DNA of 64,000 bases, filler included, from Basidioascus undulatus (Eukaryota), in assembly GCA_000826855.1 (NCBI GenBank). It is 12 parts of 12 records of this genome, joined end to end, with 100 filler letters (N's around TTAATTAATTAA, not from the genome) between each part and the next. Parts side by side here need not be neighbours in the genome. Positions count along the whole stretch, not along the records: positions 53,929 to 59,189 come from JTLS01001972.1; 11 more parts are not named here. One strand, written 5' to 3'. The first letter of the stretch is position 1, and every line of letters starts with the position of its first letter. The position numbers and the translations under genes are program-made. Shown in pieces: positions 1,201 through 60,354 of this stretch. The notes under the pieces are model-generated. The model had not been told where the DNA came from, did no database searches, and was given only the letters and a program-made list of their open reading frames with translations.

Positions 1201-1203
1201 AAG

Positions 1204-5332: not shown

Positions 5333-5432
5333 NNNNNNNNNNNNNNNNNNNNNNNNNNNNNNNNNNNNNNNNNNNNTTAATTAATTAANNNNNNNNNNNN
5401 NNNNNNNNNNNNNNNNNNNNNNNNNNNNNNNN

Positions 5433-8400: not shown

Positions 8401-8782
8401 CCGATTTCAACACCCAGACCCTTCAGACCGATGATGAGCACGTCCGAAGCGGCCATGCGCTTCATCGCATCGTGGCCAAGGACGTAGCTGCACCACAGCC
8501 CCTCGCCGTTAGTACCCTTTCCGCCTCGCCCAGCGTTCCAGTAGTCCAAACGTACAGTTGACGCTGCAAAAAGCCTTGCGTAAGCAACGATTTACACCTG
8601 AGCCGTTCAGAGAAGAACTCACCGAGTACAGCCCCTCATCGCTGTAGATCCAAGCACGTCCACCGTCAGTGGCCACGCCTACCAGGAAGCAAGCGAAGAA
8701 GGACGCACATCGTAGGGTCGACCTTGTCAATGTCCATCGCCTGGTTCGGGTCCTGCGCTGCGGTCTGCGCGTTCTGGGCCAT
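5433..8782 (-). CDS. UBA1: Ubiquitin-activating enzyme E1 (3'-truncated, multi-exon)
   Basis: [89 protein letters not shown]. Confidence 0.97.
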
Positions 8783-9318
8783 GGCGGAGGGAGATGAAAG
8801 GGTGGGCGGAAGTGGTCGTTCCTGGAGCCAGGGGAACAGATCAGTATCGCAGCCTGGATATAGCGTTCTCGCTATGCCTTTGCGCTTGAATTATGTGTAT
8901 CCTCCTAAGGGACTATACAATCCTGAGCCACAAAACTGCAGCTGTGACCAGCGCTCGAGGATCGCCACAGGACCTCGGAAGTGTCCCTCTCCGCTCCACA
9001 TGCACACTGCCCACCTCCGCTCCCGCTTGAGCTCTTCCTCGAGCCAGAATACTCACTTTTATTTCGTAATTTATTCGGTGTGCGCTCGACCTGCGAAGCC
9101 TTAAAATGCGTAGGTCGAGTGGGTTCAAAGAGAAGGTGGTGGATCTGTCGAACGCGACCAGGCGAACATGACGACTCGGGCGCTGACCGCCGTCGCTAAC
9201 CCTAGCCCCTAGGAAACGCGTCCCCAGCGCGTGGAAGACGTCCTTGCGGGCCTCCTGCCTTCTTACCACACACCACCCACCGACCAGCTTACTTTTCATC
9301 GCGAACACTCACTGACAA

Positions 9319-10739
9319 ATGTCCACTTCGGCGAGGATACTCACCCGCGCGACCACGCTGTCGAGGACACGTCTTCGTGCCACTCCCGCCCCGCCCGTGG
9401 CGGCCATTCGATCTTTTGCATCTTCCGCACCCGCGTTCGCTCCCAAGGACACTTACAAGTCAGTCTCGCATCGAACTTTTACTCGGATTTGGACCGGTAA
9501 GATGATCCGCTGACAGGGCGTCTTCCGGTCTCGTTGGTACAGCCTCGATCTCGGCACCGTGCGTGTTCTCGCTTTCTCTCCACCTTCAACATTCTACCAA
9601 GGGCGTGGTAACCTGGCGCTGTTTCCCGCTCACTCTCATGTTCACCTCCGTAACCAGACCCGGAAGAGGCTGCCCATAAACACCGGCATCGTCTTTGTGC
9701 CCCAGGCAGAGGTCCGCCTTCCCCTTCCCTGAATCAACCCCCCACCCATCTCTGACGCTTTTGAAAGGCATTCATTGTCGAGCGTATGGGAAAATTCCAC
9801 AGCGTCCTTGAGCCAGGCCTCAACTTCCTCATCCCCGGCCTCGACCGGATCGCCTACGTCAAAAGCCTTAAAGAGCAGCCTCGTCCGTCCCGGCTCGCTT
9901 CTGCTCTCTCTGCGTCGCTCGTCCGACTAATGGGGTGTCGCGGAACACAGACGACATCTCCGGCCAGACATGCATCACCTCTGACAACGTCTCGCTCCGC
10001 CTCGACGCAGTCCTCTACACCGTCCGTCACTTTCACCCTCTCTTCCCGATGCCCTTCCTGAACGTGCCACCACCCACGCAACAGCGCATAGTCGACCCCT
10101 ACAAAGCCTCCTACGGCGTCGAGCGCGTCTCGCAAGCCGTCGCGCAGCTCGCGCAGACGACCATGCGGTCCGAGATTGGTGCGCCTTGCCCTCCCTCTCC
10201 GGCCGCCCCACGCGTGTGCACAAGCTGAAACTGAAGGTGTGGCAATGCGTTCGCAGGCAAGCTGACGCTCGACAGGACTCTTTCTGAGCGTGCTTTCCTC
10301 AACACCGCTATCGTCTGTCATCCTCCGCTTTTCCTTCTTCGTGAAGGCGAACTCTCTTGACCCGATGTCGAATGCCAGACGGAGGCGATCAACACTGCAT
10401 CTTCCGACTGGGGCATTGTCGTACGTGCCCACCCTCTTCTCTTTGAGCTTTTGGTCATCCCATCGCAGCTCACACGTCCTCCTTTAGGTTCTTCGCTGCG
10501 AGATTCGGGACATCACCCCGCCCACCTCCGTAGTCGAAGCGATGCACCAGCAGGTACCTTTCCTCCTTCCTCCTCATCCATCCGCAGCTCCCCAAGCCTC
10601 ACTGTTGTCCTCCTCTCCAGGTCTCAGCCGAGCGTTCCAAGCGCGCGCAGATCCTTCAAGCCGAAGGCATGTCCTAACCGTCTCCTCAGCTCCTCCCTAT
10701 CACCACCCATCCAGCAATCAGCACCACAGAGCCCTCCTT
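9319..10739 (+). CDS. Mitochondrial stomatin-like (SPFH/band 7, SLP2-type) protein (3'-truncated, multi-exon)
   Basis: Arg/Ser-rich presequence; LPINTGIVFVPQ, IVERMGKFHSVLEPGLNFLIP, IVDPYKASYGVE..QLAQTTMRSEIGKLTLD, RCEIRDITPP, VSAERSKRAQIL. Confidence 0.92.
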
Positions 10740-10934
10740 NNNNNNNNNNNNNNNNNNNNNNNNNNNNNNNNNNNNNNNNNNNNTTAATTAATTAANNNNN
10801 NNNNNNNNNNNNNNNNNNNNNNNNNNNNNNNNNNNNNNNTCGCCCTGCACAACCTCCCGCGCATCTCCGAAGTGTCTCTGTCGCGCTTCTCCACCCCATC
10901 CCCCTCCCTTCTCCTATCTCACCTCCCTCCCCAG

Positions 10935-11716
10935 ATCGACCCGAACCGCACCATCTCCGCCGGGAAAGTGGACATCGGCGCGTTTCGGACGTATCCTGCA
11001 GACTACAAGCCGCCGGCCGACGGCCCAGGCGGCGCGGGGCAGTACCAGAGCATCCCGCTCGCGAAGATCGAGGACTTTGGCGTGCATGCCAACCAGTACT
11101 ACCCACTCGAGGTGTCCGTGTTCAAGAGCAGCTTGGACACCAAGGTCCTTGGGCTGCTGTGGAACAAGTACTGGATTAATACGCTGAGCCAGAGCCCGCT
11201 GGTTTCGGTGCGTCGTGCCCTCCATCACAACCCCCGTCCCTCTCCTGCATTCTTCCCCGCTACTGCATTATGTCCAGGTTGAATAGACTGACGCAAGTTG
11301 AGCTGGGTACAGAACCGCGCGTACCAGACCGAGCAAGTCCAGGACCTCGCGGCGAAGCTCCTGCAGGCCGAGCAGTCTGTCCAGAGCAGGCACGTCCCGC
11401 CCGTGGGCGCGCCGTCCGATGCGGACGCGAGCGGCAGCGGGAAGGGCAAGGGGAAGGCAGGTGCGGGTGCAAAGGCGGCGGAGGAGACGCCGCTGGGGAA
11501 GGCGGTCAGGGACAGGTGCTGCGTCTTCTCTCGGTCCAGGGGGAGAGGGGAGGAGAAGGATGCTGATAGAGTGATCGGAAGGACAGCACCAAGATCTCGG
11601 TCGAGGGCCAGTTCGGGCTCATCAGCCAGGTGTGCAAGGACTTGCTCTTCAACCGCCCGCGCTGCACGTGCGCGCATCAGAAGCAGCACGTCGCCGCCGC
11701 GGCTGCACCATCGTGA
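10935..11716 (+). CDS. RRI1: COP9 signalosome subunit 5 (CSN5/Jab1), 3' part
   Basis: [78 protein letters not shown] at 11714-11716. Confidence 0.95.
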
Positions 11717-11990
11717 TCCGCATCAGATCCGCCGCTCGTCCTGTCACGCGTCGCATTTCGTTTTTCGCTTGTACACTCGCACTGCATGATCATGACATGA
11801 TGAAAAGACTTTGTACACTAAATTTGTTTTTTGACTTTTTGAACGCAAGTGTTTGAGGAATGTTTGAAGAAGAAAGCAGAGCGTTATTTGGCGATGTCCT
11901 GTTGAAACCTAACTTGAGGGATGGGGAAGGGAGAGTTGGAAGGGAGAAGGCGGCCTTCCTCAGACGACCCTCCCCATCAATCCATCCACG

Positions 11991-13234
11991 ATGCTTTCCT
12001 CCCTCCGCTTCCCAGCGCTTCGAGCACGTTCCGCGTTCCCGCACGCCGCGCCCTCTCCCTCCACGCTCCCCACGCTCCTCTCCTCCCTCCGCCTCACCCC
12101 CACCCCCTCCCCCTCGCCCTGGGGCCAGCCCGTCCGCGCGCGCCGGCGCCTCCTCACGCCCACGACGCTCATCCTCGGTTTCATCCCCATCTTCACCTTC
12201 TCCCTCGGCGTATGGCAGATCAAGCGCCTCAAGTGGAAGGTTGCGCTCATTGATGAGCTCAATGACAAACTCGAGAGGGAGCCCATGAGTCTGCCACCTA
12301 ATGTCGAGTGCGTGTTCCCCTCTCCCACCTTTTCCCCGCTTTATCCCGAAATATGCCCTTCTTCTTCCCACCCCGAGGGCTGACTGAATGTACTTTGCCC
12401 ATGGAGCAGCACCTCCGCCCTCCCCGAGTTCCAATACCGCCGCGTCCTCCTGCACGGTCGGTTCCTCCCACAACGGTTCCTCGTCGTCCCGCGCGTGCGC
12501 GAAAACGTGCACGGAGCCTATCTCGTGCAGGCGCTCGCGCGCCCAGGGGGGGCGACAGTGCTCGTCAACCGTGGGTTCGTCTCCTCCGAGCACTACGACA
12601 CCTTCCACACGCCCGAGGGAGACACAGAGGTCCTGGGCATGCTTCGCGTCGCGCAGACGAGGAACATGTTCACCCCGGAGAATAAGCCCGAGAAGGGAGA
12701 GTGGTTCTGGGTCGATCCGGAGGGGATGGCCGCTGCTGCGGGTGGGAGCGAGAGGGGAGTGCAAGCGGTGCTGGTTGATGAGATCTTTGGTGAGTTGAGA
12801 GGGACGGAGGGGTGAGGGAGAAGGGGAGAAGGGGCTGATGAGTGCGTTGTGATGCGGGGAGACGGGAATGCCGGAGAGGCGGACTACAGAGTCAAGAATG
12901 GCGTCCCTGTGGGCCGACCCCCCAAAATCGAATTGCGGAACCAGCATGCCGTGTATGCGGCAACGTGGTACGTCTTTCCTTTCGATCCCCCCATCATACA
13001 GTGTTCCTCTTCCATCTGTCCTTTCCCTGTCCCAACCCTTTCTCTTTCCTGTTCTTTCTCTGTCCCAATCCTTCCTCTTTGCTGTCCTTGCCCTCTCCAC
13101 TCCCTGTCTTCCATCTCCCGACCTGCTTCCCTCCCCTCCCGCACAGGTTCTCCCTCTCCGCCGCAACAACGGGCCTCTTCTTCCTGCTCCTCCGGCGCAC
13201 GCCCCACGCACGCCGACCGCTCATGGCCAAGTAG
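11991..13234 (+). CDS. SHY1: SURF1-family cytochrome c oxidase assembly factor (multi-exon)
   Basis: IPIFTFSLGVWQIKRLKWK, EFQYRRV, VLVNRGFV, NKPEKGEWFWVD, IELRNQHAVYAATW-FSLSAAT. Confidence 0.93.
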
Positions 13235-16141: not shown

Positions 16142-17363
16142 NNNNNNNNNNNNNNNNNNNNNNNNNNNNNNNNNNNNNNNNNNNNTTAATTAATTAANNN
16201 NNNNNNNNNNNNNNNNNNNNNNNNNNNNNNNNNNNNNNNNNTGTTTAGTTGAATTTCATTCAAACTTTTTTACAGACGTGAACTTGTTTGCTGGTCGACG
16301 CAATGAAAGTTGCACTGCGTCTGCATTGTGAAGGTATCGCAGTCGGACTCTAACGACACTTTCACACGTATTGTAACACGGACTTTTTTTGACTATTCAT
16401 GCAGTGAAATTTAGCTCAAGGTAAAAGAAAAAAAAAACCCCGTTCGAACAGTAGCACACACTCTCGACTGAACTGCCCCTGCACCTATGCCGTGAGGCAC
16501 AGTTGACGCGTGGCATTGCGTCGATCCAGCACCTCGCTGATGGAAAGCTGTTCATTAATACAGCTGCTGTTCATAGGTAAAGCTCAATAAAGCAAGGTGA
16601 TGACTTTGTAAAGGCAACGCGTCTGAAACGCGTTCTGGGCTCCCGAGCGTTGCCGCGAGCGGGAGTGTCGAAAGTCACCGGAGGCTCCGCTTTCAATACT
16701 GCGGCCTCGCAAAACTGCTCATCGCCTCTTGTCGCCTCGCAGCACTTGTCCCGCTTCATGGCGTGCGGTCCTTGCGGACGTGTTCAATGAGGGTAAGATG
16801 TTGAAGCGGCGTCGTGTCCTTACGTGATGTTGCGTGTGCCCGAGTCCGCATCCTTGCAGCGCACGATGTGTCCCGAGTCAGCTCGTCTTGATGTTGCAGC
16901 ATGCCACATGCTGCCGTTCGACACTAGTTGCCTGTGTCCCTTGACGTGTCGGGTGTATTTGTAGAAGTACATCACGTAGGTGTAGGTCAGGAGTCTTACA
17001 GCCATGGATGATTGATAAGAGGAACGACTGACGAAGTGGCCCAGGGGCAGAGTGTTTGATGCCAGGGAACACTGAAGGCCAAAGAAGGACGGCCCGTCGT
17101 TCGGCTGCTCATAACAAATATTGACTTATTGTCCGTTGAGCTTCCCGTCTGTCCTTCGCTTCCGGAATTCCTGAAGTAGACAATGCGTCCACTACTCCGT
17201 CTTCCTTTGACCCACCATCGTCTCGCTCGCCTAAATCCCATCCTCCGTTCCTTGTCTTCCCGTTCCTCCCGTTCCTCCCGTTCCTCCCCCTCCCTTCCAC
17301 CTGCACCTCCTTCCTCGTTCCTATTATCATATTCTTCTTTACACTCCTTTCAATCCACACAAA

Positions 17364-21542: not shown

Positions 21543-22275
21543 NNNNNNNNNNNNNNNNNNNNNNNNNNNNNNNNNNNNNNNNNNNNTTAATTAATTAANN
21601 NNNNNNNNNNNNNNNNNNNNNNNNNNNNNNNNNNNNNNNNNNTTGTTTTGATTTTTTTTATAAAAAAAAATCAAAAAGAAAAAAATAAAAAAGAAGCGTA
21701 GTGTGAAGGTGGTAGGTGCTTGTAGATGCGTAGAATCGAGTTGGGCAATGCACTTTCAGTGATATTCTCAGGGTTAACATGCGTTGCATGTCGTTCCCGT
21801 CCATCTGAGGCCCAGGCTGCTATGCGCGCCGGCATCGCAGTCCCCGCTGAGCTGCCCTGCCGTCCCCTTTCAGCTACCCTCACCGCAATTGGTTGATCAT
21901 GCGTGTACTAATCACTTGCATGTTATGGTTGGACAGAGTTGAAGCGACCTTGTGCACCACGACCTACCTCGCCTGTCCGAAGCACATGCATCTGAGCCTG
22001 TTGGGCCTGACAAACGACCGCGTACCACCAGTCTGCACTCAAAAGGCACGGCAGAACACAAGATGCGTCATACATAACCGCTCACAGCTATGTCTCGTGA
22101 GCTAAGCGTATACAAGAAAGAGGGTGGGGTATATCCGTCTCCACTCGAACACCAGGGTCCCTCAAGCGCCAAACGACGCAAAACCCGAGAGCTGCTCTCT
22201 AGCTCATCCGACCTGTCCTCAGTCCTTCCCAACGTCAAACACCGGCTTCGAAGCGCCTTCCTCCCACCGCCAAGC

Positions 22276-26200: not shown

Positions 26201-27039
26201 TACTCCGCCGCTAGTACAGGTCCGGGATGCTGCTGAGCGAACGCAGCTGCATCACGCACAAATGCCTCCCCACCACCAAGCCGAACCAAGTGTGGGGGGC
26301 ACACGCGTGTCGGATCACTGGCCTGATAAAAGAATCTACCGAACGCGCAATGAGCTGCATGCGCTTGTGCTCCGAGCTGGGTGCCAAGCTCTAGGCGAAC
26401 AATCGTCAAAGTTGGGAAGGCTGAATCCCGAACGAGTCGGACCGGCCTGTCCCGGGTGTGGCTGTCGACTTCTTTCGAGCGGAGACTTTTACAGGGCTCA
26501 AGGGGGGGGCGGATCTTATCTTTATCGTCTGATAGATGGGGGGCTGACGTGCGGAGGAAAGCAAATCTCGCGAGCTGCGTGCGTGCGTGGTGGCGGAGGG
26601 GCCGGTAGAAGGTCAGAGAACGCCTCCGAGTAAGGATTCCTAAGGTCAGGGGCCGAGTCCGGCCGTCATTGTTCATCCTCACTGAGACAGATCCCGCTGA
26701 TAAGATACGCCGAGAAAGAAAATAAACTGCACATGCTGTTTCCCTTTGTATTTTGCCCTGCCTGCCCGCGTACACGAATGTGTGTAAGCAAACTCAGAGT
26801 GAGAAAGCAAAAAAGGCAGGTTGGCGTGGGGGAGCCAATCAGCGCGCACCGGGCGCTCTGGTGCGATTGCCGACTGACCGCTCTCCCCGCGCCCTCAACA
26901 CCCATCGCTTTCCTAAGCCCGCCCGCCGCCGCGTTGCAGNNNNNNNNNNNNNNNNNNNNNNNNNNNNNNNNNNNNNNNNNNNNTTAATTAATTAANNNNN
27001 NNNNNNNNNNNNNNNNNNNNNNNNNNNNNNNNNNNNNNN

Positions 27040-27097
27040 GTTCGATCCCTGCGTCGGTCAAGGCCGGCTGGCTCAATGGTAGAGTATCTGACTACGA
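27040..27097 (+). tRNA. Circularly permuted tRNA-Arg(ACG), copy truncated by the contig start
   Basis: GTTCGATC CCTGC GTCGGTC A (T arm, acceptor 3' strand, discriminator), 1-nt linker A, GGCCGGC TG GCTC AATGGTA GAGT A TCTGA CT ACG A (5' half), then CTG TTTTT. Confidence 0.85.
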
Positions 27098-27100
27098 CTG

Positions 27101-27105
27101 TTTTT
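27101..27105 (+). terminator. RNA polymerase III oligo-dT terminator
   Basis: T5 run 3 nt after the end of the tRNA 5' half. Confidence 0.65.
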
Positions 27106-28414
27106 GCTCCCCATCTGAAGGGCAGCTGAAAAGGAAGCAACTATTTTGTAAGAAACCTTCGGAAGCGAGGAAAGGTATTTCCTAAATGAAACCGTCTTCT
27201 AAATGCTGCATAGAACCTGAGCAGGTAATGAGCACTCGGCGGAAGGCATCTTGCAACGCTGAAGCCTTTCAAGCTGCGAGAGCATGTGGCGTCCAACGGG
27301 CAGTCTCAGACTGACGCACAGACACCATGGATACATATAAAAGAGCTCTGAATAGACCAAATCGTTCTTATCATTGCAAGGAGACAATGCACCCCAGTAC
27401 AATTGATGCATGAGCCTTGTGAGCGAAGGCAGGTGTATCTTGAAGATGGCCATGATCGCCGGGACTCAAAGCAGTTGCACACCAGGGCTGTTGGAGCACC
27501 CTCGACACGCCACAAGCCTCACAAACACCTGCCTCCCCCAATATAACTTGTTTACCCACTATTAGTATCACTTCCTTTACCTTTCACCCCGCATGACACA
27601 GTCGCGTAACCCACTGGGTTTGGTGCGGACCGACTTTCGCTTTCGCCCGGAGCGCCACATAGCCTCCCCGTTGTATAGCTTTTTGCTAGGTAGTTAAAGG
27701 ATAGTGGCCGGGGTGATGAGGGATATTAGTTACGGTTGTCACCATCGGGTGTGCGAGTGTGTTGGAAGATGTTGGTTGAGAGATAGACTGCGGCATCCAT
27801 GAGAGAGCTGGACATCCCTCCCCCAACAAGTCTCCCTTCCTCCCCCCACAAGTCTCGCTTCCTGAAGCGATTGCTCGTCGCTGGCAGAGGGCCGTGAGCG
27901 CGCCTACTACTCTTGACCCAGTACGAGCTCGTACTAGGACTTAGAGCGCGGCGGGCGTCGCTCTCGTCAGCGAGGTTGGATGCCAGCCTTGTGCGAGCGT
28001 GGGTAGCTGTCGATACGATGTCAAAGACAAACAAAGTCAGTGGTCGCAAGTGAACGGGTGCGGATGCGAGTGCGAAATGCGAGTGCGAATGTGATTGCGA
28101 GTACGCAACGACGGGCCTTTCTCCATCTCGCTCTCACCCTTCCCTTCCAAGCTGCTCTGCTCCTCTCTACCTCCCTCTCCCTCACTGCCCTCTTCAGCTC
28201 GCCCCCTTATGAAACACCACAATGCAGACCTTCCTCCTCACTCGCTCGCCTCACACTCTCGCGAACCCCAACCCGCACTCGCCCATCTCGCGACCCAAAG
28301 AAGCGATCTCATCAAGCGCGTGTACCATTCAGCCCATCCCCCATTCCCCTCCTCCCCCCATCTTCCCACTCCCTCTATTCCCGCCCCCCTCTCTTCCTTC
28401 TCCTCACATAGCCC

Positions 28415-32325: not shown

Positions 32326-32425
32326 NNNNNNNNNNNNNNNNNNNNNNNNNNNNNNNNNNNNNNNNNNNNTTAATTAATTAANNNNNNNNNNNNNNNNNNN
32401 NNNNNNNNNNNNNNNNNNNNNNNNN

Positions 32426-36020: not shown

Positions 36021-37950
36021 ATCGCCGTCGGGTACACGCAAGCAGTCGGCTTTAAACATATGCGCAATGTAATAACGGCTACAAAGAGCTGGCTATATAG
36101 TAAGGGGGTTCAAGTGTCACTGGAGAAGAAAAGGGGAAGAGGCGAGCACGGCGAGCTATTTAACTACTGAGCGTTCGAGAGAAGTCCTGGACTAATACGA
36201 GAGAACTATCGAGATAACTACAGGGGAGAGGTCATATTCCGAGAGATTCACCCGGACTACAGCAATCATGTTCCGAGAGAAACATAGAAATAAGGAAACG
36301 TTCCGAGAATTGTCCTGAAAGCGGTGCGAAGCGGAGAACCGAACATCTGAACCTAACCAAAGTCGTATCAAAGCTTGTGAGGCGACGAAGGCGTCACAGC
36401 CCGGTCCCTCGCAATGCCACTCACTCACCGGCACGGTGTTGCGCCTCAAAGCTTCGGAAAGTGTCTTCTCCGTACTTGTCCATCGAGCGTAGCGTGTCTT
36501 TGGCGTCGTCCAATTGAATGACATCGACTTGCGCAGCGCGATGCGCGGCGGGTCATCTGGACTGACGGTCCGCAAAAAGATCGTGAGCGCCATGCGCTCG
36601 CCGTTGGCGCGGTCCTTGCGTCGTAGAGCGCGGTGGCGCGGTTGTCCTTATACTGGATCTGCCACATTCGCAGGGCCTGTCCGAGCTTCCAGACCTTCGC
36701 TGCCGCCGGACCTTCGCGTGCTCGTCACCGGCTCGTCGCGTTGAGTCGGCAGGCGCCTTGTGAACCGGCTAGGGCGCGCGCTGATACTTCCGAGAGCAGT
36801 ACGACACTGCCCATCCGCACAATTCGGGTCAGCAGGTAAAGCAGTAATCAGGATAACTGTCGGAACCACCCTTGACCAGGTGGCGCTCCCTCAGGTCGTT
36901 TGAGCGGGCGGCAGTGTTGGCACTTGCCCTGGAGAGAAGCTGAGGCCGCCGGCGCCGGAAGTCATTCTCGAATATGGCGAGGTGGTCCGTTGAGCGACAC
37001 ATACATACGAAATGAAGACAACAACAAAGAGTTACTTCATAAGCGTCTGGCGCCGGGGGCGTATGGTGGGAAAGTGAACAGCGGAAGGTCGGGCTGGTCA
37101 GCACCAAGCATGCAATAAACAAGGGAGCTTTTATCCTCACCTCCTTACGTAGCCTATGAGCACTAGTGATGAAGAAAGAAGGAGGAAGAGAAGGAAGCCG
37201 GGCTTTATCGTGGATGAGCGCAACCTCGCACGTCTGACACGTTTCGCATTCAACACGTTTGAGTTCTAGACGTTTGTGCCTGGGATCCCAGGATTTTACT
37301 TTAAACGGGTTTGCAGCAACTTCCGTGCTGTGGAAATCAAAGCACACGCAACATAGACGATGGCGAATAATCATGCGAGTTCACGAAGACTGCGTAGACT
37401 GCGTCGTCGGCCCGAAACTTCTTGAAGCCTATTTCTTTATGGAATAAGACACAGCGCACCTCCGGTGTCCGATCGTCCACCGACGCAGAGATGATGTTCC
37501 ACCAACAGTCGACGTCCGCGAGGTAGCCGCGGTACGCGGGCGAGGCGGCGGTGATCAGAGCAGAATGTTTAGGGGGCGAGACCTGGAACGAAACAAACGT
37601 CAGCGAGTTTATTAATTGCTATCTCTGGGTAAGCCTTCCGAAACACAGCGAGTACACGTGTTGACGCCATTAACGATACAGCTCATGTACGCGAAGCACG
37701 GATGCGGTTANNNNNNNNNNNNNNNNNNNNNNNNNNNNNNNNNNNNNNNNNNNNTTAATTAATTAANNNNNNNNNNNNNNNNNNNNNNNNNNNNNNNNNN
37801 NNNNNNNNNNTTTCATACTCTCGTGTATAAAATGGTGGGAGCTGGCACTGCTGCATCTACATCGAAGTCACTCCCCTGCACGCTTCACTCAGCTTGCATC
37901 GACGCGAAGCGGGGAACTGACATATTTACTATAATCTTCAATAAAAACAA

Positions 37951-38066
37951 GGCGAGATGGCCGAGTGGTCTAAGGCGTCGGATTCAATCTTCTTATAGAT
38001 TTCCTCTCATATGAAGGAACAGTCCCGATCACGCAAGTGGCGCGGGTTCAAATCCCGCTCTCGTCA
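37951..38066 (+). tRNA. tRNA-Leu(CAA) with a 34-nt intron
   Basis: GGCGAGA TG GCC GAGTGGTCTAA GGC G TCGGA TT CAA [intron] GT CCCGA, long variable arm TCACGCAAGTGG, GCGGG TTCAAAT CCCGC, TCTCGTC A; T5 terminator 2 nt downstream. Confidence 0.92.
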
Positions 38067-42993: not shown

Positions 42994-43191
42994 CTGCGGG
43001 GGGGGAGGGATAAGGGAGGTAGGGGGGGTGGGGAGGAGGGAGGGGGAGGGGAGAGGAGGAGGAAGCGGGTGATGTTGCCTGGGGATTATGGNNNNNNNNN
43101 NNNNNNNNNNNNNNNNNNNNNNNNNNNNNNNNNNNTTAATTAATTAANNNNNNNNNNNNNNNNNNNNNNNNNNNNNNNNNNNNNNNNNNNN

Positions 43192-46100
43192 GGGGCGCGA
43201 CGACCTCGACCCGCCGCGCAAGCCGCCGGACCAGCTGCCGATCGTGCTGCAGGTCCTGCTCTCGCAGGCGCACCGCCTCCGCGCGCTCATCCTCCTCTCG
43301 CAGTTCGTCGACCTCGGGCCGTGGGCCGTCAACCTCGCGCTCTCGATCGGCATCTTCCCCTACGTGCAGCGCCTGCTCCAGTCGCCCGCGGCCGAGCTCA
43401 AGCCCGTCCTCATCTTCATCTGGGCGCGCATCCTCGCCGTCGACCGCACCTGCCAGACCGATCTCCTCAAAGACAACGGCTTCACCTACTTCGCCAACGT
43501 CCTGTCACCCTTCCAGGGCGGCGGCGGGCTCCCGATCCCCAACGTCTCGGAGCACCGCGCCATGTGCGCGTTCATCCTCTCCATGTTCTGCCGCGACTTC
43601 CGCCCGGGCCAGATGGCGTGCTTCAGCGCGAGCGTGTTCGAGATGTGTATCGTCCACCTTGAGGACGAGGACTACCTCCTCCGGCAGTGGAGTGCTCTCT
43701 GCCTCGGCCAGCTCTGGGACGGCAACGACGAGGGCCGCGCCGTCGCGCTCCGCGAGGGGGCGCCCGAGAAGCTCTGCGCCATGCTGAATGATGTCGCGCC
43801 CGAGGTCCGCGCCGCAGTCCTCTTCGCCCTTGGGACGTTCATGGGCGCCAGTGGATCGCGCTGGGAGCACAGCCCGCCCCCGCAAGGCGTCCAGCCCCCG
43901 CGCATGGGCGGCGGCGGCACGGGCGCGATGCACGGCCTCCCGCACGAGGACCACCTCCGCCTCGAGCTCCGTTACGCGCTCGCAGGGCTCGCGGCGAAGG
44001 AGGACGCGTCCCCGATGGTCCGCAAGGAGCTCCTCGTCTTCTGGTCGGCGCTCGTGCGCGAGTGGTCAGGGTGGTTCGTCCTCGCTGCGTACACGTACTA
44101 CGCGGCGGAGCGGCAGGATGAGGCCCGGCGAGCGGGCGGGGATGCTAAGGGAAAGGGGAAGGGCGCTGTTCGGCCATCGCCTCATGCGATTCGCGAGGCG
44201 ATCCGCGAGCACGAGGGCCCAGAGCAGGGTGACCAGCTCCTCGCGAGCTTCGTCTCGCTCTTCATCGCACTGCTCGACCTCTCCGTCGACCCGTACCCCG
44301 AAGTCGCCTCCCACGCATGCACAATCGTGGACTTCATCTCCGCCCTCCTGCTTGAGTCGCCCCTCGCCGACGCGCGCGACTCTGCCCTCCCCCCTCCCCC
44401 CGCAGGCACGTCCTCTGCGCGCCGCTCGCCCGCACCCTCCATGTTCAACACCCGCCACCCCTACTCCCCCTTCGACTCTGCCTTCCAGCCCCCGCACCAA
44501 TCCCAGCTCCACCCTCCGCCAACTCCGAACGGCTCGTTGACGCAGCCGCCGTCGCCCACCCTCGCGCGCGACTCTCCCGCGCCCATCCGCCGCTCCGGCT
44601 CCCTCGCCGCGGCGCTCAACAAGCTCACGAGCTTCCCCTCCCTCTCCGGCGCGCCCTCGCCCTCGCGCAGCGACAGCGGTGATGCTGCGAACGGGCACGT
44701 GAACGCGTCGGGCTTCGCGCAAGTCAACGGCCAGCCCTCGCCCCACTTCAACCACGCCGTCTATCACTCGCCCTACGGTCCTTCTCCTCCCGACACGCCC
44801 GCCTCCGACTCGGCGCACCACCCGCCCAACCGCACAGCCTCTACGGACTCGCTCCGCGCGCTCGCCCAGCGCGCGAACCACGCCCGCGCGCAGAGCTCGT
44901 CTGCCGTCCCGACGCTGTCGAGCCTGAGCAAGGACGCCAGTGACCGCGCGGCATCGAACGTCACCGTCGCGGACGCGGTGATGGCGCTCCTCGACGAGGA
45001 CGACGCGCGCTTGCGGAAGCGCAAGGAGAAGGGCCAGCCGCCTAGCCAGCACCCGCCGCCCTCGCCTTCGCTGCCCCCGAGCAGGTCCCGCGTCGAGCTC
45101 GAGGAGAACATGGGGATTGTTCTGCCGCTCAAGAGCCGGTATTACGAGTGGTGCTGCGAGTACTACACCGAGAGCCAGATGCGGGTGCGTTGACGTCTTT
45201 CTCGTTTTTCCTTGTTTGGGGCTGTGGAACTGAGAGGTGGCCGATTACAGAACGCCGAGGCGGACGAGCCGGGCAGCGTCAAGTACAACGAGCAGCTCTG
45301 GCGGCGACAACGGAACGAGCGGATCATCTCCGAAACGCAGATCCAGGCCGAAGTCGCTTGTGAGTCTGGATTGCTTCGCACCTTGCCCCGGCCTCTTTCT
45401 CTGACTGCGGTTTCTCTGTGCAGCCTCACGAGAGTGGGAAAGCACGATCGGCCACGTCCACGAGCGATACGTCCCCGTCAAGCTCACGTTCCACCAGTTC
45501 GAACCGCACCTCATCACCGCGGACGAGCACGACACGCTCAGGTCCGTCGCGTAGCGCAGTTGCTTTCCTTCCTTCCTGCTCGGGCTCATGGCAAACGTTA
45601 CGTCTTCACAGCATCTGGGACTGGCAAGCGGGCAGGCGGCTGAACACCTTCTCCAATGGCAATCCGCTCGGCACGAACATCACGACAGTTAAGCTCATCA
45701 ACGAGGACGTCGAGGCGTTGCTGTTGACTGCATCGGGTCCGTGTTCATCCGTTCGGTGCAACTCCGTCGCCTTCGATCCTGACATGCCGGCGTGCGTCTT
45801 TGCAGCCGAGGGCCACGTCCGCATCTTCCGCGATTACGACAAGGCGGGCGGGGCGGAACTCGCCTCCTCCTTCCGCGCCACGAGCGAGCTCATCCCCAGT
45901 CGTCATCCTAGCGGCCTTGTCGCTGAGTGGCAGCAGGCGACCGGCAACCTGTTCGTCGGCGGCGACATGCGGTCGGTTCGTGTCTGGGATGCGCACCACG
46001 AGCTCTTCCACTCCGTGAGTCTATATCCGTTTTCTTTCCATCTTTCACTTTTGTCTAAACTTGCAGCTTACCTTCCGCTCTTCTTGCAGGACATCCCGAC

Positions 46101-48461: not shown

Positions 48462-48561
48462 NNNNNNNNNNNNNNNNNNNNNNNNNNNNNNNNNNNNNNN
48501 NNNNNTTAATTAATTAANNNNNNNNNNNNNNNNNNNNNNNNNNNNNNNNNNNNNNNNNNNN

Positions 48562-53753: not shown

Positions 53754-53826
53754 TGGTTCTTCCGTGGATTGAACACGGTACCTTCAGGACTTCAATCTGA
53801 CGCTCTCCCAGATGAGCTAAAGAACC
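53754..53826 (-). tRNA. tRNA-Phe(GAA), intronless, copy 2
   Basis: 73/73 identical to 1204-1276 with different flanks; followed by TTTCTTTT on the minus strand. Confidence 0.92.
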
Positions 53827-53928
53827 CANNNNNNNNNNNNNNNNNNNNNNNNNNNNNNNNNNNNNNNNNNNNTTAATTAATTAANNNNNNNNNNNNNNNN
53901 NNNNNNNNNNNNNNNNNNNNNNNNNNNN

Positions 53929-55291: not shown

Positions 55292-56690
55292 GCTTGAGGG
55301 ACTGCGTGGCGCTCGTGAGATAATGGTGGGGAGTGGGCGTGGGTGACGGTGAGTATTAGGAATGAGGGCGAGTGCAGGTGCGAGATGTTGACAACGACAA
55401 CGGGCACAGCATCTGCATCCGCAAATTCCGTTGAGTAACAGATCCGTTGGATTTGCAGCCGGGAAGGCCTGCCAGCTCACCGACCGAGATCATGAGTTGG
55501 AGGAATACTGTTAGTGGGAACGGTTGTTTGAGATTCTCTGAAAAGAAGGTTAGCCGCTCCCTCGAGCGCCAAAATGCTTCTAGCAACGAACGAGAAGTGA
55601 AAGACGACGTCGTGCGTGGAAGGCAGCACCTCAAAGGAAGCGGTGGCACCCGGAGGTGCACCAACCAACGAACAGAAAGTAATCGAGTGCTAAGGGGCCC
55701 CCATGAACAAATAAAACGGTGTATACGACGGCACCCGGAGAACAGGCAGTGCGCAAAGGCACCCGGAAGTAAGTATCGAAGGCGGTGCACTGCATTGGAG
55801 GCGCTTGAAAGAAGTAGAGCGACAGTGCGCTGCAGGTCGGAGATCTACACGAGAGGGGGGCGAGAGAGAGGTTAGAGTGAGATCGGTGGGGAGAGAGGCA
55901 ATGAGGTGGTGGGGAAAGAAGAAGAGTGGGAGAGCGACGCGAGAGGGCGGCGAGGCGAGTGCAGAAGCGGATGAGAGAGGAACGGCACGCGCTATCTCAT
56001 GTCTTGGTGCCAGTCTGCGCTCGAAGCTGTCCGAAGAAGAATAAATACTCGAAATAGTCTTTTGACGGGGAATTGGACGCTACTGGCGGGGGAAAGCGGT
56101 CGGAGGAGCTGTGGATCTGAATCATTCGGTCTGTCTATAGTAATGTAACGGCTGACAACGTGAAGATACAGGATCATGGGCACTGACCCAAGTCCTACCT
56201 TCCACGAGATTTTGAATTACACCTCCCTGATACTTCAGCAGAGCGGTGATTTGTGGGTCACAGTCAAAGACTCGAAGTACAACTTTGTCCAATGACGCTA
56301 CCGCGTACCGTGGCTCCGAGTGTGGGTTGCTCAGCAGACCCCTATACTCAAGAGCTGGGAATTTATCAGGATTCCCTAATGATCTGGTAACTGCAAAGTG
56401 TAGAATGGGTGATAGGTATTCTAAAGCTGTTTCAAGGTAGAGGCGAAAGAACGGCGATATATGTAGTGAGTGCAGCGTAGGTCCATGTATCAATCGAAAA
56501 CAATGAGAGGGTGGTATTAAGAGACTGCTCCTTTAGTAATAAACGGGAATTATTGAAACCTCAAGTCCGCTTAGGCAAAGAGCCATCGCGATGAAAAGAA
56601 CATTCTGCCTTGTTTCTGCTTGCTATGTTACAAAATCATTATCATTCGGCCTAGTTCATCACCAGCAAGCATAAGAGAGCGGTAGTTGAG

Positions 56691-56763
56691 ATCAGGGGGT
56701 TGCAGGTTCGATCCCTGCGTCGGTCACGGCCGGCTGGCTCAATGGTAGAGTATCTGACTACGA
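56691..56763 (+). tRNA. Circularly permuted tRNA-Arg(ACG): 3' half 56691-56726, 1-nt linker 56727, 5' half 56728-56763
   Basis: A TCAGG GGGTT GCAGG TTCGATC CCTGC GTCGGTC A - C - GGCCGGC TG GCTC AATGGTA GAGT A TCTGA CT ACG A. The re-ordered halves give a full 72-nt cloverleaf with all four stems paired (some G-U pairs). Confidence 0.92.
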
Positions 56764-56765
56764 CA

Positions 56766-56770
56766 TTTTT
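56766..56770 (+). terminator. RNA polymerase III oligo-dT terminator
   Basis: T5 run 2 nt after the end of the tRNA 5' half. Confidence 0.65.
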
Positions 56771-57975
56771 GCGTCTTCACTTGCAGTGACTGAGAAACAC
56801 TGACTGTTTTGCCCGCGAAGGGCAAGACGGCGCTCCGCGTCTCCAGGTTGTCTCCAGGTGCATGCCAGCTGCAGTTGCTGTAAGTCGAGGACGTCCGCAG
56901 GGATGACCTGGACGCTGGTTTGCATAGCAGAGATCGAAAACAGCCTATATAAAAAGCCAGCATTTGATCTGAGGTTTCAAGTATCTCCTGGTGAATTGGA
57001 GTCTAGAAGGAAAGAAGCAACAGAGCTGGAAAGCTGCAAACTGATCTGTGTGCCTGCAAGCCACACTTTCAACTGCACAAGCAAATGAATGCCAGGTAAT
57101 GCTCGGGTCCAGGTACTCCTTGTCAGCCAAAATCTTTCTCGCCCATGGTGGTGATCTTGGTGTCAGACCTGAAGGCAAGTAGGACGACAACCAACACCCC
57201 TGAAGGCTTCGGCTGCTGCTTGGACAACATCAGTCCTATGCAAACATCCGGGGCCCAACCTAGCTGAGCCCTTTCCATCTTACCACAATCTCACCAGGTC
57301 GAACTGTTTACTCTCAGTATGATGAGACCGTCGCCGAGCGATGTTCAGCTCGTTCCTTGGTGAATCAGCAACAAGTCACGCTCAATCGTAAAGTCAAGAT
57401 GTTCTTGTGATAGTGTTTTTGGTGGGTATGCCACAGCATCAAACTGTTGCATTGTTTACAATATGCTGCGATGCAGAAATTTCCCAAAGCAGAGGTAAGT
57501 GGCGTTGAAAGTTGGCGTCGAGTAGTCTCACAATATCAGACGGACTGCTGCCCACGCGGCCTTCGAAGTGAGAGCCGAAAGAGATACGAAGGCTGTCGGA
57601 GCTAGGAGCAAACTCCATATATAGTCGGGCCCACCGCGCCGCCCTCAGATTATTGTCTTAGAGTTTTGCACTATCGCCGATGACTTGATTCCTCGGCTGG
57701 CTCACTTTGCGGGCAGAACGTCTGACATATGAGACTAGACGTTGAGGCTGAATGTGAGACAACCCATGTGAGAGCCCGGGTAGCGTCCGTGGACGCGCGG
57801 AGGACGGTCGGGCGAGCGAGCCCAAAGCACTTGTCTGCCTGCCCCTCGGCCCTCGCGTTGGCATCAACGTCCTTCTCGCAGCCTACACCGCCCACACTGA
57901 CACATACACGACTCTCATTATCTTTCATTTAGCTCAACCCCAGATACAATCCGCCCTAGCGCCGTTGCGCGGGCC

Positions 57976-59189
57976 ATGGCTTCTCATCCCAAAACCCCCC
58001 TGGCCTCACGCCTGCCGACCTCCAGCTCACCCTCGGGCTTGCCCACACCCAGCGGGATTCCTGCTCCGGGCAGGCGAAAGAGCCTCGGGCCCGAGGCTGC
58101 GCCGCCTTTGAATGGCGCGACCGGGCCGGAGGCGATGCGCGAGCTGGGGATTGCTATGGGCAGGAGCGATCTGAGGCAGCTGGACGGCGGTGAGTTGACT
58201 TCCAATCACTAGTTTGCTCATCTGCGAAGGTCTTTCATGGTGCTCTTGGAGAAGCTGTATGGTGCTGGGTCTAAATTCAGCATATGCTGGAGAGGGGCTG
58301 CTGAGCGGACGGCGCAGCACCGGCCAGCACCCGTACCCTTCCGCCATGTTCTGACAAGCATGACCTTCCCCATGCAAACAGGTCTCCGTCGCCCCTCCTC
58401 TTCAACCTCTCGGCGCCCCTCGTCCGCTCTCTCTTCGGCATCCTCTATCCCAGGCTCGACCTCCTCTCCCACCTCCACGCACGCACCGACCTTCCCCACC
58501 CCGCGTACACCCTCCGGCCTTCCGCCCCCGCGCGCCCGCACGCCCACAGCGACCTCGACCCCCTCTCGCTCGCACATCACGCCCAAGCGCGGCTCCGTCG
58601 CGCACCGCCCGCCCTCTCGGCTGCGGCATGAGGCGGAGCGCGATTTCGAGCCGGGCGACCAGGTCCGCGTGGAGAGCCTCGGCATGGAGGGCACGCTGCG
58701 GTACATCGGCGAGGTCGACTTTAAGGACGGAATCTGGGCCGGCGTGGAGCTCTCGGGTGGATTTGCTGGGAGGGGAAAGAATAATGGGAGTGTTGCTGGG
58801 TGAGTCTCTCCGAGCATGATCTGCTTCCGACCATGGAGCTCTGACCTGGAGGCTCTGAACAGCCGGCAATACTTTACCTGCGCCTCCAACTGTGGGATCT
58901 TCGTCCCGGCCGCCAAGCTCTCTTCTGTGGCTCTCCGGCCTCCCTCCTCCCTCTCATCCTACCGCGCCGCAACGCCCACAGGGCGCACCACACCGTCGCT
59001 CGCGCGTCCCACCCCATCCTCCTCCTCCGCCTCCGCAGCACGCAAGACCAAGACCTCGCTCGAAGCGCAAGCCCTCGAGAACAAGATCCAGCCAGGCTCG
59101 CGCGCGAGCAAGTACTTGGGCATGACGGCCTCGCAGCTGCGGGAGCCGACGACGCCCAAGGCCCCCACGCGCGCACCGTCTTCAACCAT
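57976..59189 (+). CDS. CAP-Gly domain protein (CLIP-170/Bik1/Tip1-like), 3'-truncated
   Basis: FEPGDQVRVESLGMEGTLRYIGEVDFKDGIWAGVELSGGFAGRGKNNGSVAG-RQYFTCASNCGIFV, flanked by Ser/Pro/Arg-rich tracts. Confidence 0.9.
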
Positions 59190-60354
59190 NNNNNNNNNNN
59201 NNNNNNNNNNNNNNNNNNNNNNNNNNNNNNNNNTTAATTAATTAANNNNNNNNNNNNNNNNNNNNNNNNNNNNNNNNNNNNNNNNNNNNCCCCACGCTGC
59301 ATGAGTCCTGGTATTCGATGCATGTTAGGGTCTCTCCGGGCCGTGAGGACTTTTCGAGCGCTTCCTGTCTCGACCGTTCCACTATGAGGGTGAGCTGCTC
59401 GTCTGCTCATCGGGTCATTGTCGTCCGTAGTCGAGTTTTTCAATTTCTGCGTATATCCCAACTTGAAGGATCCACTTAGATCCACTCGTGTTCCCATTGA
59501 TATTTACACTTGTGCGGAACGTGGTGGGGTGGCGATCCGCGAAGCTCAGCGGCTTTCGAGCAGAGCTCTTTTCCACCGGATCTGCTACTACAGTCCGGCA
59601 TCTTTCAAGTAACACAATGTTGAAACAGTCCCTTCTACCTCAAGTGCTCTCCTTCAGTTTGCGTTCGCATTGAGGAGCCCCTGCAACGTCGCGCTCAATT
59701 GTTATGAGCCACAAGGCTTGTTTTGTGTTTGTCCTGAACGTTGCTACTGACCCCTTTGTGGCTTTGTTTCCCGAGTAAGTGCAAAAATGTTGATATTATT
59801 ATCTCTTTCTCCCCTACTAGGTGTGTACGGGAAACAATTTCCGGATGCTCATGAGGGTTTGCCGTTGTGCAAGATGATCTCTGCAGGACGACGACCGACT
59901 CGGTTCCCATATGTATAGCTTTTCATAGGCTTAATAGAACGTTTATATCCCACAGAACCTCTTCGTAGCACGACGTGCACTTATCCAAGCTGCCGTTCGC
60001 TAACCGTACGAATTGATCTTCGTGCAGATGCCCAGTGCGGACATACTGTCGATAATAGGGACAACCGCTGACATTCTGTGCCTGACATGAAATGTTATTT
60101 TATTTCTGTCCGGGGGTGACTTCTGAACAGCGGGTGTTGCGCAGCCACCAGGTCGATGGTTGCCATGGAGATTTCGACGCCGTATCGATAACTTCGTGCT
60201 TTGAATACCATGCAGGTTCTCCACTTGCTTCCTCAAACTCTCTTCTCGTTGCTCTGTCCGCCTACCCATCGCATTATATGACTTCCATCGTCTCAGCTTC
60301 GCGACCTTGCACTGCTAATCCCAACTACAGCATCAGCGCAAAGGTCACATCGCG

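What the first reader, a model, noticed from the sequence alone, without database searches (positions are those of the whole stretch)
56691..56770. Circularly permuted tRNA-Arg(ACG) gene in a fungal nuclear genome
Seen: the tRNA 3' half (A38, anticodon-stem strand TCAGG, variable loop, T arm GCAGG-TTCGATC-CCTGC, acceptor strand GTCGGTC, A73) lies upstream of the 5' half (GGCCGGC, D arm GCTC-AATGGTA-GAGT, TCTGA, CT-ACG-A). One C separates them and CA-TTTTT follows. Swapping the halves gives GGCCGGCTGGCTCAATGGTAGAGTATCTGACTACGA/ATCAGGGGGTTGCAGGTTCGATCCCTGCGTCGGTCA, a complete cloverleaf. I see no matching 5' half upstream and no 3' half downstream, so this is not a tandem pair of intron-containing genes. 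The same contig carries spliceosomal-intron fungal genes (UTP13, CAP-Gly). Established: permuted tRNA genes mature by splicing-endonuclease cleavage, ligation into a circle and reopening at the acceptor stem; they are described in Cyanidioschyzon merolae, prasinophyte algae, a chlorarachniophyte nucleomorph and Thermofilum pendens. Inference: I know of no fungal example, so this may be an undescribed tRNA-maturation route in fungi that standard tRNA scanners would miss.
Basis: partly seen in the sequence, partly recalled or inferred. Interest (0 to 1): 0.95.

Follow-up and report, generated by a model that had tools for sequence, protein, structure and literature searches.

The report
Back-to-front arginine tRNA gene family
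A basidiomycete fungus carries many copies of its main arginine tRNA gene written back half first, a layout so far reported only in a few algae and one archaeon, and one that would force the RNA to be cut, joined into a circle and re-opened before it can work.

Summary
Window 56691-56726 is the 3' half of a tRNA (positions 38-73). Base 56727 is a single linker base. 56728-56763 is the 5' half (positions 1-37), and a run of five T follows 2 bases later. ARAGORN reads the re-ordered halves as a complete tRNA-Arg(ACG). ARAGORN and the Rfam tRNA model both miss the native order.

It is not a one-off or an assembly error. A second copy lies at 27040-27105. It matches the first at 57 of 58 shared positions, and the only difference is the linker (A instead of C). 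Independently built contigs of two whole-genome runs show junction-spanning pieces at about 9-17 times single-copy depth, and further copies sit in other flanks. A soil-metagenome contig also holds the unit.

The host is a basidiomycete; its closest named relatives are Wallemia. Five literature searches found no fungal case.

The best reading is a multi-copy family of circularly permuted tRNA-Arg(ACG) genes broken at the canonical intron site (37/38). Three things remain unshown: expression, the promoter, and whether conventional copies are absent. No RNA run and no whole genome were available.

The window itself is 12 draft contigs joined by N spacers.

The parts
56660..56680 (+). Upstream stretch shared with other copies of the family. 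It starts with the motif CACCAGCAAG (56660-56669) and may be the transcription start region or a transcribed leader.
   Evidence: In one search, other copies' contigs stay alignable up to 56665-56681 before their loose ends begin. By eye, 5 of the 7 printed upstream loose ends carry CACCA or TACCA about 16-22 nt before 56681, including the soil-metagenome contig (X4). The conventional tRNA-Phe gene has CCACCATCAAT directly before its first base. The role is inferred.
56681..56690 (+). 10-nt leader (GGTAGTTGAG) directly before A38. It is the proposed intron-like partner of the anticodon loop.
   Evidence: It is conserved in other copies (X2, X3 and X4 pieces start at 56681). With the cloverleaf enforced, leader bases 5-10 pair with C32, U33, C35, G36, A37 and the first trailer base. 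G at -3 can pair with C32.
56691..56726 (+). tRNA 3' half, positions 38-73: A38, anticodon-stem 3' strand, variable loop, T arm (B box 56705-56715), acceptor 3' strand, A73.
   Evidence: The T arm and acceptor were also aligned by the YrlA covariance model.
56727..56727 (+). 1-nt intervening base (C) between A73 and G1.
   Evidence: It is the only position that differs between the two window copies (A in copy 2).
56728..56763 (+). tRNA 5' half, positions 1-37: acceptor 5' strand, D arm (A box 56735-56745), anticodon-stem 5' strand, C32 U33 A34 C35 G36 A37.
56764..56770 (+). Trailer CA plus TTTTT (56766-56770), read as an RNA polymerase III terminator.
   Evidence: TTTTT occurs in only 556 of 125,556 12-nt windows of this sequence (0.44%). 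The class II tRNA gene at 37951-38066 ends the same way, with 2 bases and then TTTTT.
27040..27060 (+). Second copy: the last 21 nt of the 3' half (T loop to A73). The rest is lost at a contig start.
27061..27061 (+). Second copy: 1-nt linker (A).
27062..27097 (+). Second copy: complete 5' half, 36 of 36 identical to copy 1.
27098..27105 (+). Second copy: trailer CTG plus TTTTT (27101-27105).

Best explanation
This locus is one member of a multi-copy family of circularly permuted nuclear tRNA-Arg(ACG) genes in a basidiomycete fungus. The break is at the canonical intron position, 37/38.

Proposed pathway, all steps inferred:
1. RNA polymerase III makes a transcript in the order leader, 3' half, 1-nt linker, 5' half, short trailer, and stops in the T run.
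2. The body folds as a normal tRNA whose acceptor stem is closed by a tiny loop.
3. The tRNA-splicing endonuclease cuts before A38 and after A37, treating leader plus trailer as a split intron.
4. The tRNA ligase joins A37 to A38, giving a circle.
5. RNase P and tRNase Z (or an exonuclease) open the acceptor end and drop the single linker base.
6. CCA is added and A34 is deaminated to inosine.

If RNase P cuts first, the same product arises from two base-paired pieces without a circle.
For: Shown:
- The re-ordered halves form a complete cloverleaf.
- The break falls exactly between 37 and 38. From established knowledge, this is the one place where eukaryotic tRNA introns sit.
- A T5 run follows 2-3 nt after A37 in both window copies, against a 0.44% background. 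It is placed as in a conventional tRNA gene of the same window.
- The two copies are identical at 57 of 58 shared unit positions. The one difference is the linker, the only base predicted to be discarded. Beyond a shared C and the TTTTTGC just after A37, the flanks diverge.
- In the contigs of two whole-genome runs the flanks are single-copy (depth 17.8 and 52.5). Short pieces spanning T loop, linker and D loop (56697-56752) have depth 175 and 298 in X1 and 473 in X2, about 9-17 copies each. Long contigs with other flanks hold 56688-56770 with 7 differences and 56696-56752 with 5. In all, 63 and 62 contigs were laid.
- A soil-metagenome contig holds 56681-56768 with 2 differences and a different upstream flank.
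- CGC, CGT and CGA make up 55 of 77 Arg codons in two conserved ORFs, so this is the major arginine tRNA needed.
- An intron-bearing tRNA gene lies in the same window, so tRNA splicing is in use.

Inferred:
- The leader can give a C32:G(-3) pair with a 3-nt bulge holding the 3' cut site (read from the sequence).
Against: - No RNA evidence of any kind could be obtained.
- The B box lies upstream of the A box. The Soma 2014 review (passages) calls this order unsuitable for TFIIIC binding. No TATA-like box is evident, and this genome has conventional A/B-box tRNA genes.
- The free fold is not better than shuffles (z -0.96; z 0.43 with the longer leader).
- With the cloverleaf enforced, the preferred leader pairing is a continuous helix with one-base bulges, not a bulge-helix-bulge. 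The textbook register needs a U-U mismatch.
- I could not test whether conventional tRNA-Arg(ACG) genes exist elsewhere in the genome. No back-joint appeared, but that is weak evidence, because a junction piece would have only 30-nt sides and could go unlisted.
- Copy numbers derived from contig depth are estimates.
Confidence: 0.6

Rival explanations
1. It is a dead, amplified tRNA-derived repeat. A rearranged tRNA-Arg(ACG) copy arose from a head-to-tail dimer that lost its outer halves, or from a retro-copy. It spread by retroposition or segmental duplication and makes no working tRNA. Conventional genes elsewhere supply tRNA-Arg(ICG).
For: The copy number is high and there are many variant short contigs: in X1, 63 contigs were laid, of which 5 are under 90% alike and 7 are 90-95% alike. 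Diverged copies have 5-7 differences. The reversed box order is a poor promoter. In X3, a 93-nt contig places 5'-half positions 1-16 directly in front of the leader, as expected for leftovers of tandem copies. The shared TTTTTGC after both copies could be inherited rather than selected.
Against: There are no flanking target-site duplications, no A-rich or simple-repeat tail and no body beyond about 110 nt. The two window copies are identical except at the linker, and the main junction pieces are identical over 53-56 nt at about 10-17 copies each. That pattern fits purifying selection or gene conversion rather than decay. The break is exactly at 37/38. The leader is conserved and the anticodon loop is intact.
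Confidence: 0.22
2. It is a functional RNA that is not a decoding tRNA. One option is a tRNA mimic built like the bacterial YrlA tRNA-like module. The other is a gene for a 5' tRNA half, transcribed from the A box alone and ended by the T run.
For: The only Rfam model that aligns across the native order is YrlA: 30.9 bits, E 7.3e-05, 56672-56781. An A box with a terminator about 20 nt after it could give a short RNA (inference).
Against: The YrlA score is far below its gathering score of 69. Family conservation ends about 10-30 nt before and 7 nt after the tRNA parts, so there is no room for a Ro-binding stem. The bacterial look-alikes fetched have a 5-6-bp capped hairpin in place of the acceptor and no anticodon loop. 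Here there is a full 7-bp acceptor with discriminator and an exact 7-nt anticodon loop once joined. The strict conservation of the 3' half would be unexplained for a 5'-half gene.
Confidence: 0.1
3. It is an assembly artefact from collapsed or mis-joined tandem tRNA copies.
For: The window is a draft of short contigs that break at tRNA repeats. Copy 2 and one tRNA-Phe sit at contig ends. The best DNA runs may be the data that the window was assembled from.
Against: A different assembler's contigs of two runs contain the acceptor-linker-acceptor junction at high depth. They also contain whole units inside 4-50-kb contigs with unique flanks. A soil metagenome has the unit too. Two window copies with different flanks and different linkers agree.
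Confidence: 0.02

Closest known systems
Type II (junction 37/38) permuted tRNA genes of green algae (Ostreococcus, Micromonas; Maruyama et al. 2010, seen through passages of Soma 2014, PMC3978253, and PMC13578239)
   Same: The 3' half lies before the 5' half on one strand. The junction is in the anticodon loop at 37/38. A short intervening sequence lies between the acceptor ends, and CCA is not encoded.
   Different: The host is a fungus, not an alga. The linker is only 1 nt. Dozens of near-identical copies of one major isoacceptor are indicated here. A clear bulge-helix-bulge is not predicted. Expression is not shown.
[quoted passage not shown] 2007; review passages)
   Same: Same gene logic, with a downstream T stretch as terminator. 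The proposed route is splicing endonuclease, ligase, circle, then RNase P and tRNase Z.
   Different: C. merolae has 11 such genes among 43, with junctions at several positions. It has an upstream TATA-like box and no identified TFIIIC box-binding subunits. Here there is one isoacceptor, one junction type, no TATA-like box seen, and conventional A/B-box tRNA genes alongside.
Thermofilum pendens permuted tRNA-Tyr(GTA) (Chan et al. 2011; review passage)
   Same: A 1-nt intervening sequence.
   Different: It is archaeal, the junction is at 59/60, and CCA is encoded.
YrlA (Rfam RF02553), the tRNA-like module of bacterial Y RNA
   Same: The order is T arm, then a stem in the acceptor's place, then D arm, closed by a stem in the anticodon stem's place. 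The model aligns to the locus.
   Different: The score of 30.9 bits is below the gathering score of 69. Ours has no Ro-binding stem, has a true acceptor stem with discriminator and a complete anticodon loop, and sits in a eukaryotic host.
Ordinary intron-containing fungal tRNA genes (intron at 37/38)
   Same: The same cut sites and the same enzymes are expected. The leader and trailer together play the part of the intron. One such gene is in this window.
   Different: The halves are in reverse order, so joining them gives a circle, and the acceptor end must be opened afterwards.

Membership tests
Circularly permuted tRNA gene | The 3' half lies upstream of the 5' half on the same strand, and the re-ordered halves give a canonical cloverleaf with the conserved tRNA bases. 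| tested here: met
   ARAGORN reads tRNA-Arg(acg), 72 nt, on the re-ordered slices. U8, A14, G18 G19, U33, G53 T54 T55 C56 and A58 were read.
Circularly permuted tRNA gene | An intervening sequence joins the 3' and 5' ends of the acceptor stem. | tested here: met
   It is 1 nt: C at 56727 and A at 27061. The published range is 1-74 nt.
Circularly permuted tRNA gene | Leader and trailer form a bulge-helix-bulge (or a eukaryotic anticodon-intron pair) at the junction. | tested here: inconclusive
   The C32:G(-3) pair and a 3-nt bulge are possible by eye. The 4-bp helix then has a U-U mismatch. Constrained folding prefers another register. Only one full leader was available, so covariation could not be tested.
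Circularly permuted tRNA gene | A T stretch lies downstream as RNA polymerase III terminator. | tested here: met
   TTTTT follows 2-3 nt after A37 in 2 of 2 window copies. Background is 0.44%.
Circularly permuted tRNA gene | An upstream promoter (TATA-like in algae) drives transcription of the whole unit. | tested here: inconclusive
   No TATA-like box was seen in 56600-56690. A CACCA-type motif is shared by copies (by eye), but its role is unknown.
Circularly permuted tRNA gene | A circular intermediate and a mature CCA-tailed tRNA are detected. | not testable with these tools
   No RNA run holds the locus.
Circularly permuted tRNA gene | The permuted gene is the (only) source of that tRNA. 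| tested here: inconclusive
   No whole genome is held. There is no conventional copy in the 64-kb window. No back-joint appeared among the 63 and 62 contigs laid, but a short junction piece could go unlisted.
YrlA (RF02553) | Reaches the family's gathering score and has a Ro-binding stem outside the tRNA-like module. | tested here: not met
   The score is 30.9 bits against 69. Conservation among copies ends within about 10-30 nt upstream and 7 nt downstream.
tRNA-derived SINE | A tRNA-related head in normal A-then-B order, a body, a 3' tail and target-site duplications. | tested here: not met
   The B box precedes the A box. The unit is about 90-110 nt and ends in a T run. There are no flanking direct repeats. 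Flanks diverge right after the unit.

The most novel reading that the evidence does not exclude
In a Wallemia-related lineage of basidiomycete fungi, the whole supply of the major arginine tRNA (ICG, reading CGU/CGC/CGA) comes from some tens of circularly permuted genes with a one-base linker. That would be the first permuted tRNA genes outside algae and archaea, in an organism with an ordinary TFIIIC-type tRNA gene system. It would imply that the opisthokont splicing endonuclease and ligase routinely make circular pre-tRNAs. It would also imply that RNA polymerase III can be recruited to a gene whose B box precedes its A box.
Probability: 0.4. Interest if true: 0.88.

Novelty: new member of a known kind. 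Interest (0 to 1): 0.78.

Why it matters
Permuted tRNA genes have been treated as an oddity of a few algae, a nucleomorph and one archaeon. They are often discussed together with unusual transcription machinery.

A multi-copy family for a major isoacceptor in a fungus would have four consequences:
- The layout could arise and be maintained in a lineage with standard A/B-box tRNA genes and the ruler-type eukaryotic splicing endonuclease.
- It would give a culturable fungal system for studying circular pre-tRNA processing and how RNA polymerase III is recruited to reversed boxes.
- Standard tRNA annotation may silently drop an essential tRNA in some fungal genomes. Both scanners used here missed it.
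- The one-base linker raises the question of how the acceptor end of a circle is opened.

Tried and rejected
- Whole genome: none is held for this window. I could not make a genome-wide count of permuted and conventional tRNA-Arg(ACG) genes.
- RNA evidence: no RNA holder is listed for 56300-57200, so nothing can be said on expression.
None belongs to this family; the best blastn match was 79% over 57 nt (one search returned no rows under its settings). Of 125 pattern matches, 79 are two adjacent ordinary tRNA genes, 10 have one tRNA call, 34 are tRNA-like modules called only across the junction, and 2 gave nothing. I scanned 20 of the loci without an ordinary tRNA call at the match against Rfam, and 1 reached the YrlA gathering score. 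The 16 whose sequences I printed look like bacterial YrlA-type modules.
- Exact junction patterns in viral contigs and genome contigs: 0 matches each. Neither collection holds fungi, so this says little.
- Earlier notes of this scan: nothing on this genome or sequence.
- A 476-aa ORF (11793-13220) gave no homologue and is probably not a gene.
- Target-site duplications around the unit: none.
- An A-box-like stretch at about 56648-56655 is not shared by other copies' upstream ends (by eye). I dropped it.
- Tandem intron-containing genes as an explanation: rejected. No partner halves lie within the 5.3-kb contig, and a 1-nt spacer leaves no room for a terminator.
ARAGORN served instead.

Full report
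WHAT IS THERE.
- 56691-56726 holds A38, the 3' strand of the anticodon stem, a 5-nt variable loop, a T arm with the loop TTCGATC, the 3' strand of the acceptor stem and A73.
- 56727 is a lone C.
- 56728-56763 holds the acceptor 5' strand, U8, a D arm with GG in its loop, the 5' strand of the anticodon stem and C32 U33 A34 C35 G36 A37.
- CA and TTTTT (56766-56770) follow.

A script took the two slices from the window file in the order 5' half then 3' half. ARAGORN read them as a 72-nt tRNA-Arg(acg) with all four stems. In native order the locus is invisible to the usual tools:
- ARAGORN on the whole window found only two tRNA-Phe.
- ARAGORN with introns allowed found nothing in 56600-56850.
- Rfam at gathering score found three tRNAs elsewhere and none here.
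- At a loose threshold the only structured match is YrlA, the bacterial Y-RNA whose tRNA-like module has the same arm order. It scored 30.9 bits against a gathering score of 69.

THE WINDOW IS A CONCATENATION. The window is interrupted 11 times, about every 5.4 kb, by N44 + TTAATTAATTAA + N44. It is therefore 12 draft contigs of 4.7-5.3 kb laid end to end. The finding's true contig is 53929-59189. It carries a CAP-Gly gene whose domain is split over two frames, 58213-58800 and 58804-59187. It is therefore a eukaryotic nuclear contig. I did not check UTP13.

A SECOND COPY. A 41-nt pattern across the T loop, acceptor, linker, acceptor and D loop occurs twice, at 56705 and 27039, with 0.00 expected in 100 shuffles. 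The second copy begins a contig at 27040, inside its T loop, so its leader is lost. Over the 58 positions that both copies have, 57 are identical. Those positions are 21 of the 3' half, the linker, and 36 of the 5' half. The single difference is the linker, C versus A. After A37 both copies have C, then one or two bases, then TTTTTGC, and after that the flanks diverge. TTTTT is present in only 556 of 125,556 12-nt windows.

Searching each half as two overlapping 24-mers with up to 4 substitutions found no other piece in the window and no conventional order. A scan of the whole window in doubled 150-nt pieces found no further permuted tRNA with an anticodon-loop junction. It gave 5 junction-spanning calls. 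Four were on this locus, of which only one read it as Arg(acg). One was an artefact on the intron-bearing tRNA. Junctions at other positions were not searched.

A MULTI-COPY FAMILY, NOT AN ARTEFACT. Four public runs hold part of 56300-57200, and none is RNA. I laid their contigs, which were built by another assembler, on the stretch.
- In the two whole-genome-sized runs the flanks have depth 17.8 (X1) and 52.5 (X2). The summed depth over 56672-56764 rises to 2,100-4,150 and 4,490-13,000, with 63 and 62 contigs laid. Part of that sum will come from other tRNAs with similar arms.
- Short pieces spanning the permuted junction itself (56697-56752 or -56749) have depth 175.4 and 298.3 in X1 and 472.7 in X2. 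That is about 10, 17 and 9 times single copy.
- One of the X1 pieces has no difference from the window and the other has one. That fits the two linker variants, but this is an inference.
- Long contigs with other flanks carry 56688-56770 with 7 differences (4.2 kb and 18.5 kb) and 56696-56752 with 5 differences (2.6 kb and 50.7 kb).
- Loose ends begin before 56665-56681 and behind 56763 or 56770, so the shared unit is only about 90-110 nt.
- A soil-metagenome contig (X4) holds 56681-56768 with 2 differences.
- X1 and X2 may be the window's own source, so they confirm the sequence but not a second lineage.

My estimate is roughly 10 to 30 or more copies. It rests on contig depth.

THE HOST.
- A UBA1 fragment (6594-7622) is 68-76% identical to the best 120 proteins listed, and nearly all the named ones are Agaricomycotina. 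It also scores higher against the fungal Uba1 structures than against human UBA1.
- A Raptor/Kog1 fragment (43202-45190) is 55% and 54% identical to Wallemia ichthyophaga and W. mellicola. Other basidiomycetes with full coverage reach 40-46%.

The organism is therefore a basidiomycete nearest to the Wallemia lineage among named genomes. I did not establish the species.

DEMAND AND MACHINERY. In these two ORFs, 55 of 77 arginine codons are CGC (45), CGT (8) or CGA (2), which are the codons read by tRNA-Arg(ICG). Many gene copies of this tRNA are therefore expected. A class II tRNA gene with a 36-nt insertion in its anticodon loop lies at 37951-38066. tRNA splicing is therefore in use, as in eukaryotes generally.

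HOW IT WOULD WORK (INFERRED).
- The break is exactly where eukaryotic tRNA introns sit. Leader plus trailer would act as a split intron.
- By eye, G at -3 can pair with C32. From memory, this is the anticodon-intron pair known from yeast. It would leave A(-2), G(-1) and A38 as a 3-nt bulge holding the 3' cut site, and G36, A37 and C(+1) holding the 5' cut site.
- In that register the 4-bp helix has a U33-U mismatch. With the cloverleaf enforced, ViennaRNA prefers a different register (-26.7 kcal/mol), in which leader bases 5-10 pair with C32, U33, C35, G36, A37 and C(+1).
- The free fold is no better than shuffles. A bulge-helix-bulge is therefore not demonstrated.
- Ligation of A37 to A38 would give a circle. 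RNase P and tRNase Z would then open the acceptor end and remove one base, as proposed for algae (passages).

THE PROMOTER IS THE WEAK POINT. The B box (56705-56715) precedes the A box (56735-45), an order the Soma review calls unsuitable for TFIIIC. I see no TATA-like box. Other copies share an upstream CACCA or TACCA motif about 16-22 nt before the leader. It appears in 5 of the 7 printed upstream loose ends, by eye. The conventional tRNA-Phe gene has CCACCATCAAT directly before its first base. This may mark the start site, but I cannot test it.

RIVALS.
- A dead amplified repeat fits the copy number, the diverged copies and a tandem-like form in X3. In that form 5'-half bases 1-16 directly precede the leader. 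It does not fit the absence of target-site duplications or a tail. It also does not fit the identity of the copies except at the linker, or the exact 37/38 break.
- A YrlA-like mimic or a 5'-half gene does not fit the intact acceptor, discriminator and anticodon loop.
- An assembly artefact is excluded for practical purposes.

WHAT IS KNOWN. [quoted passage not shown] Junction 37/38 is the common green-algal type, and intervening sequences run from 1 to 74 nt. Five full-text searches listed no fungal nuclear case; for these I saw listings and abstracts only. The tRNAscan-SE 2.0 paper mentions permuted tRNAs only for archaea (passages). The Wallemia genome paper gives only a tRNA total (passages). 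Subscription journals and unread supplements are not covered.

VERDICT. This is a real, multi-copy, circularly permuted tRNA-Arg(ACG) gene family in a basidiomycete. As far as I could search, it is new for fungi. Function is likely (0.6) but unproven.

Noticed in passing
window 5333-5432, 10740-10839, 16142-16241, 21543-21642, 26940-27039, 32326-32425, 37711-37810, 43092-43191, 48462-48561, 53829-53928, 59190-59289: The window is 12 draft contigs of 4.7-5.3 kb, in descending length, joined by N44+TTAATTAATTAA+N44 spacers. Any first-stage argument based on 'the same contig' or on gene neighbourhood across these points is void.
   Followed up: yes
window 1203-1276 (-) and 53754-53826 (-): Two tRNA-Phe(GAA) genes with the same Rfam score (54.7 bits). 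The second lies 2 bases from a contig end, so the draft assembly tends to break at tRNA repeats. CCACCATCAAT lies directly upstream of the first gene.
   Followed up: partly
window 37951-38066 (+): A class II tRNA gene (Rfam 46.4 bits) with a 36-nt insertion in the anticodon loop and TTTTT 2 bases after its end. ARAGORN reads the anticodon as TCA (SeC); a shifted register would give CAA (Leu). The isotype is not resolved.
   Followed up: partly
run X3, 93-nt contig laid on 56719-56743 and then 56681-56748: In a run of the same sample as X2, the acceptor 3' strand, the linker and 5'-half bases 1-16 are joined directly to the leader GGTAG... of a unit. This suggests tandem or partly deleted units, and that the leader's GGTAG is a remnant of a D loop. 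It is a possible clue to how the permuted layout arose and to an upstream A box in some copies.
   Followed up: no
window 56802-56812: GACTGTTTTGC, 40 nt downstream of the terminator, resembles the A37-trailer-terminator stretch of copy 2 (27096-27107). It may be chance or a back-up terminator.
   Followed up: no
metagenome loci L005-L118 (e.g. L025:1469-1584): 34 of 125 matches to the pattern (T loop, 20-30 nt, D loop) are bacterial or phage-type tRNA-like modules in permuted arm order that ARAGORN does not call as ordinary tRNAs. Of 20 loci scanned, only 1 reaches the YrlA gathering score, so most are uncatalogued relatives or other mimics.
   Followed up: partly
window 56789-56933 versus run X1: The X1 contig covering the downstream flank differs from the window by 12 substitutions, 3 small insertions and a 17-nt deletion, while the upstream flank is identical. 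It may be a second allele, nucleus or strain, or a paralogous flank.
   Followed up: no
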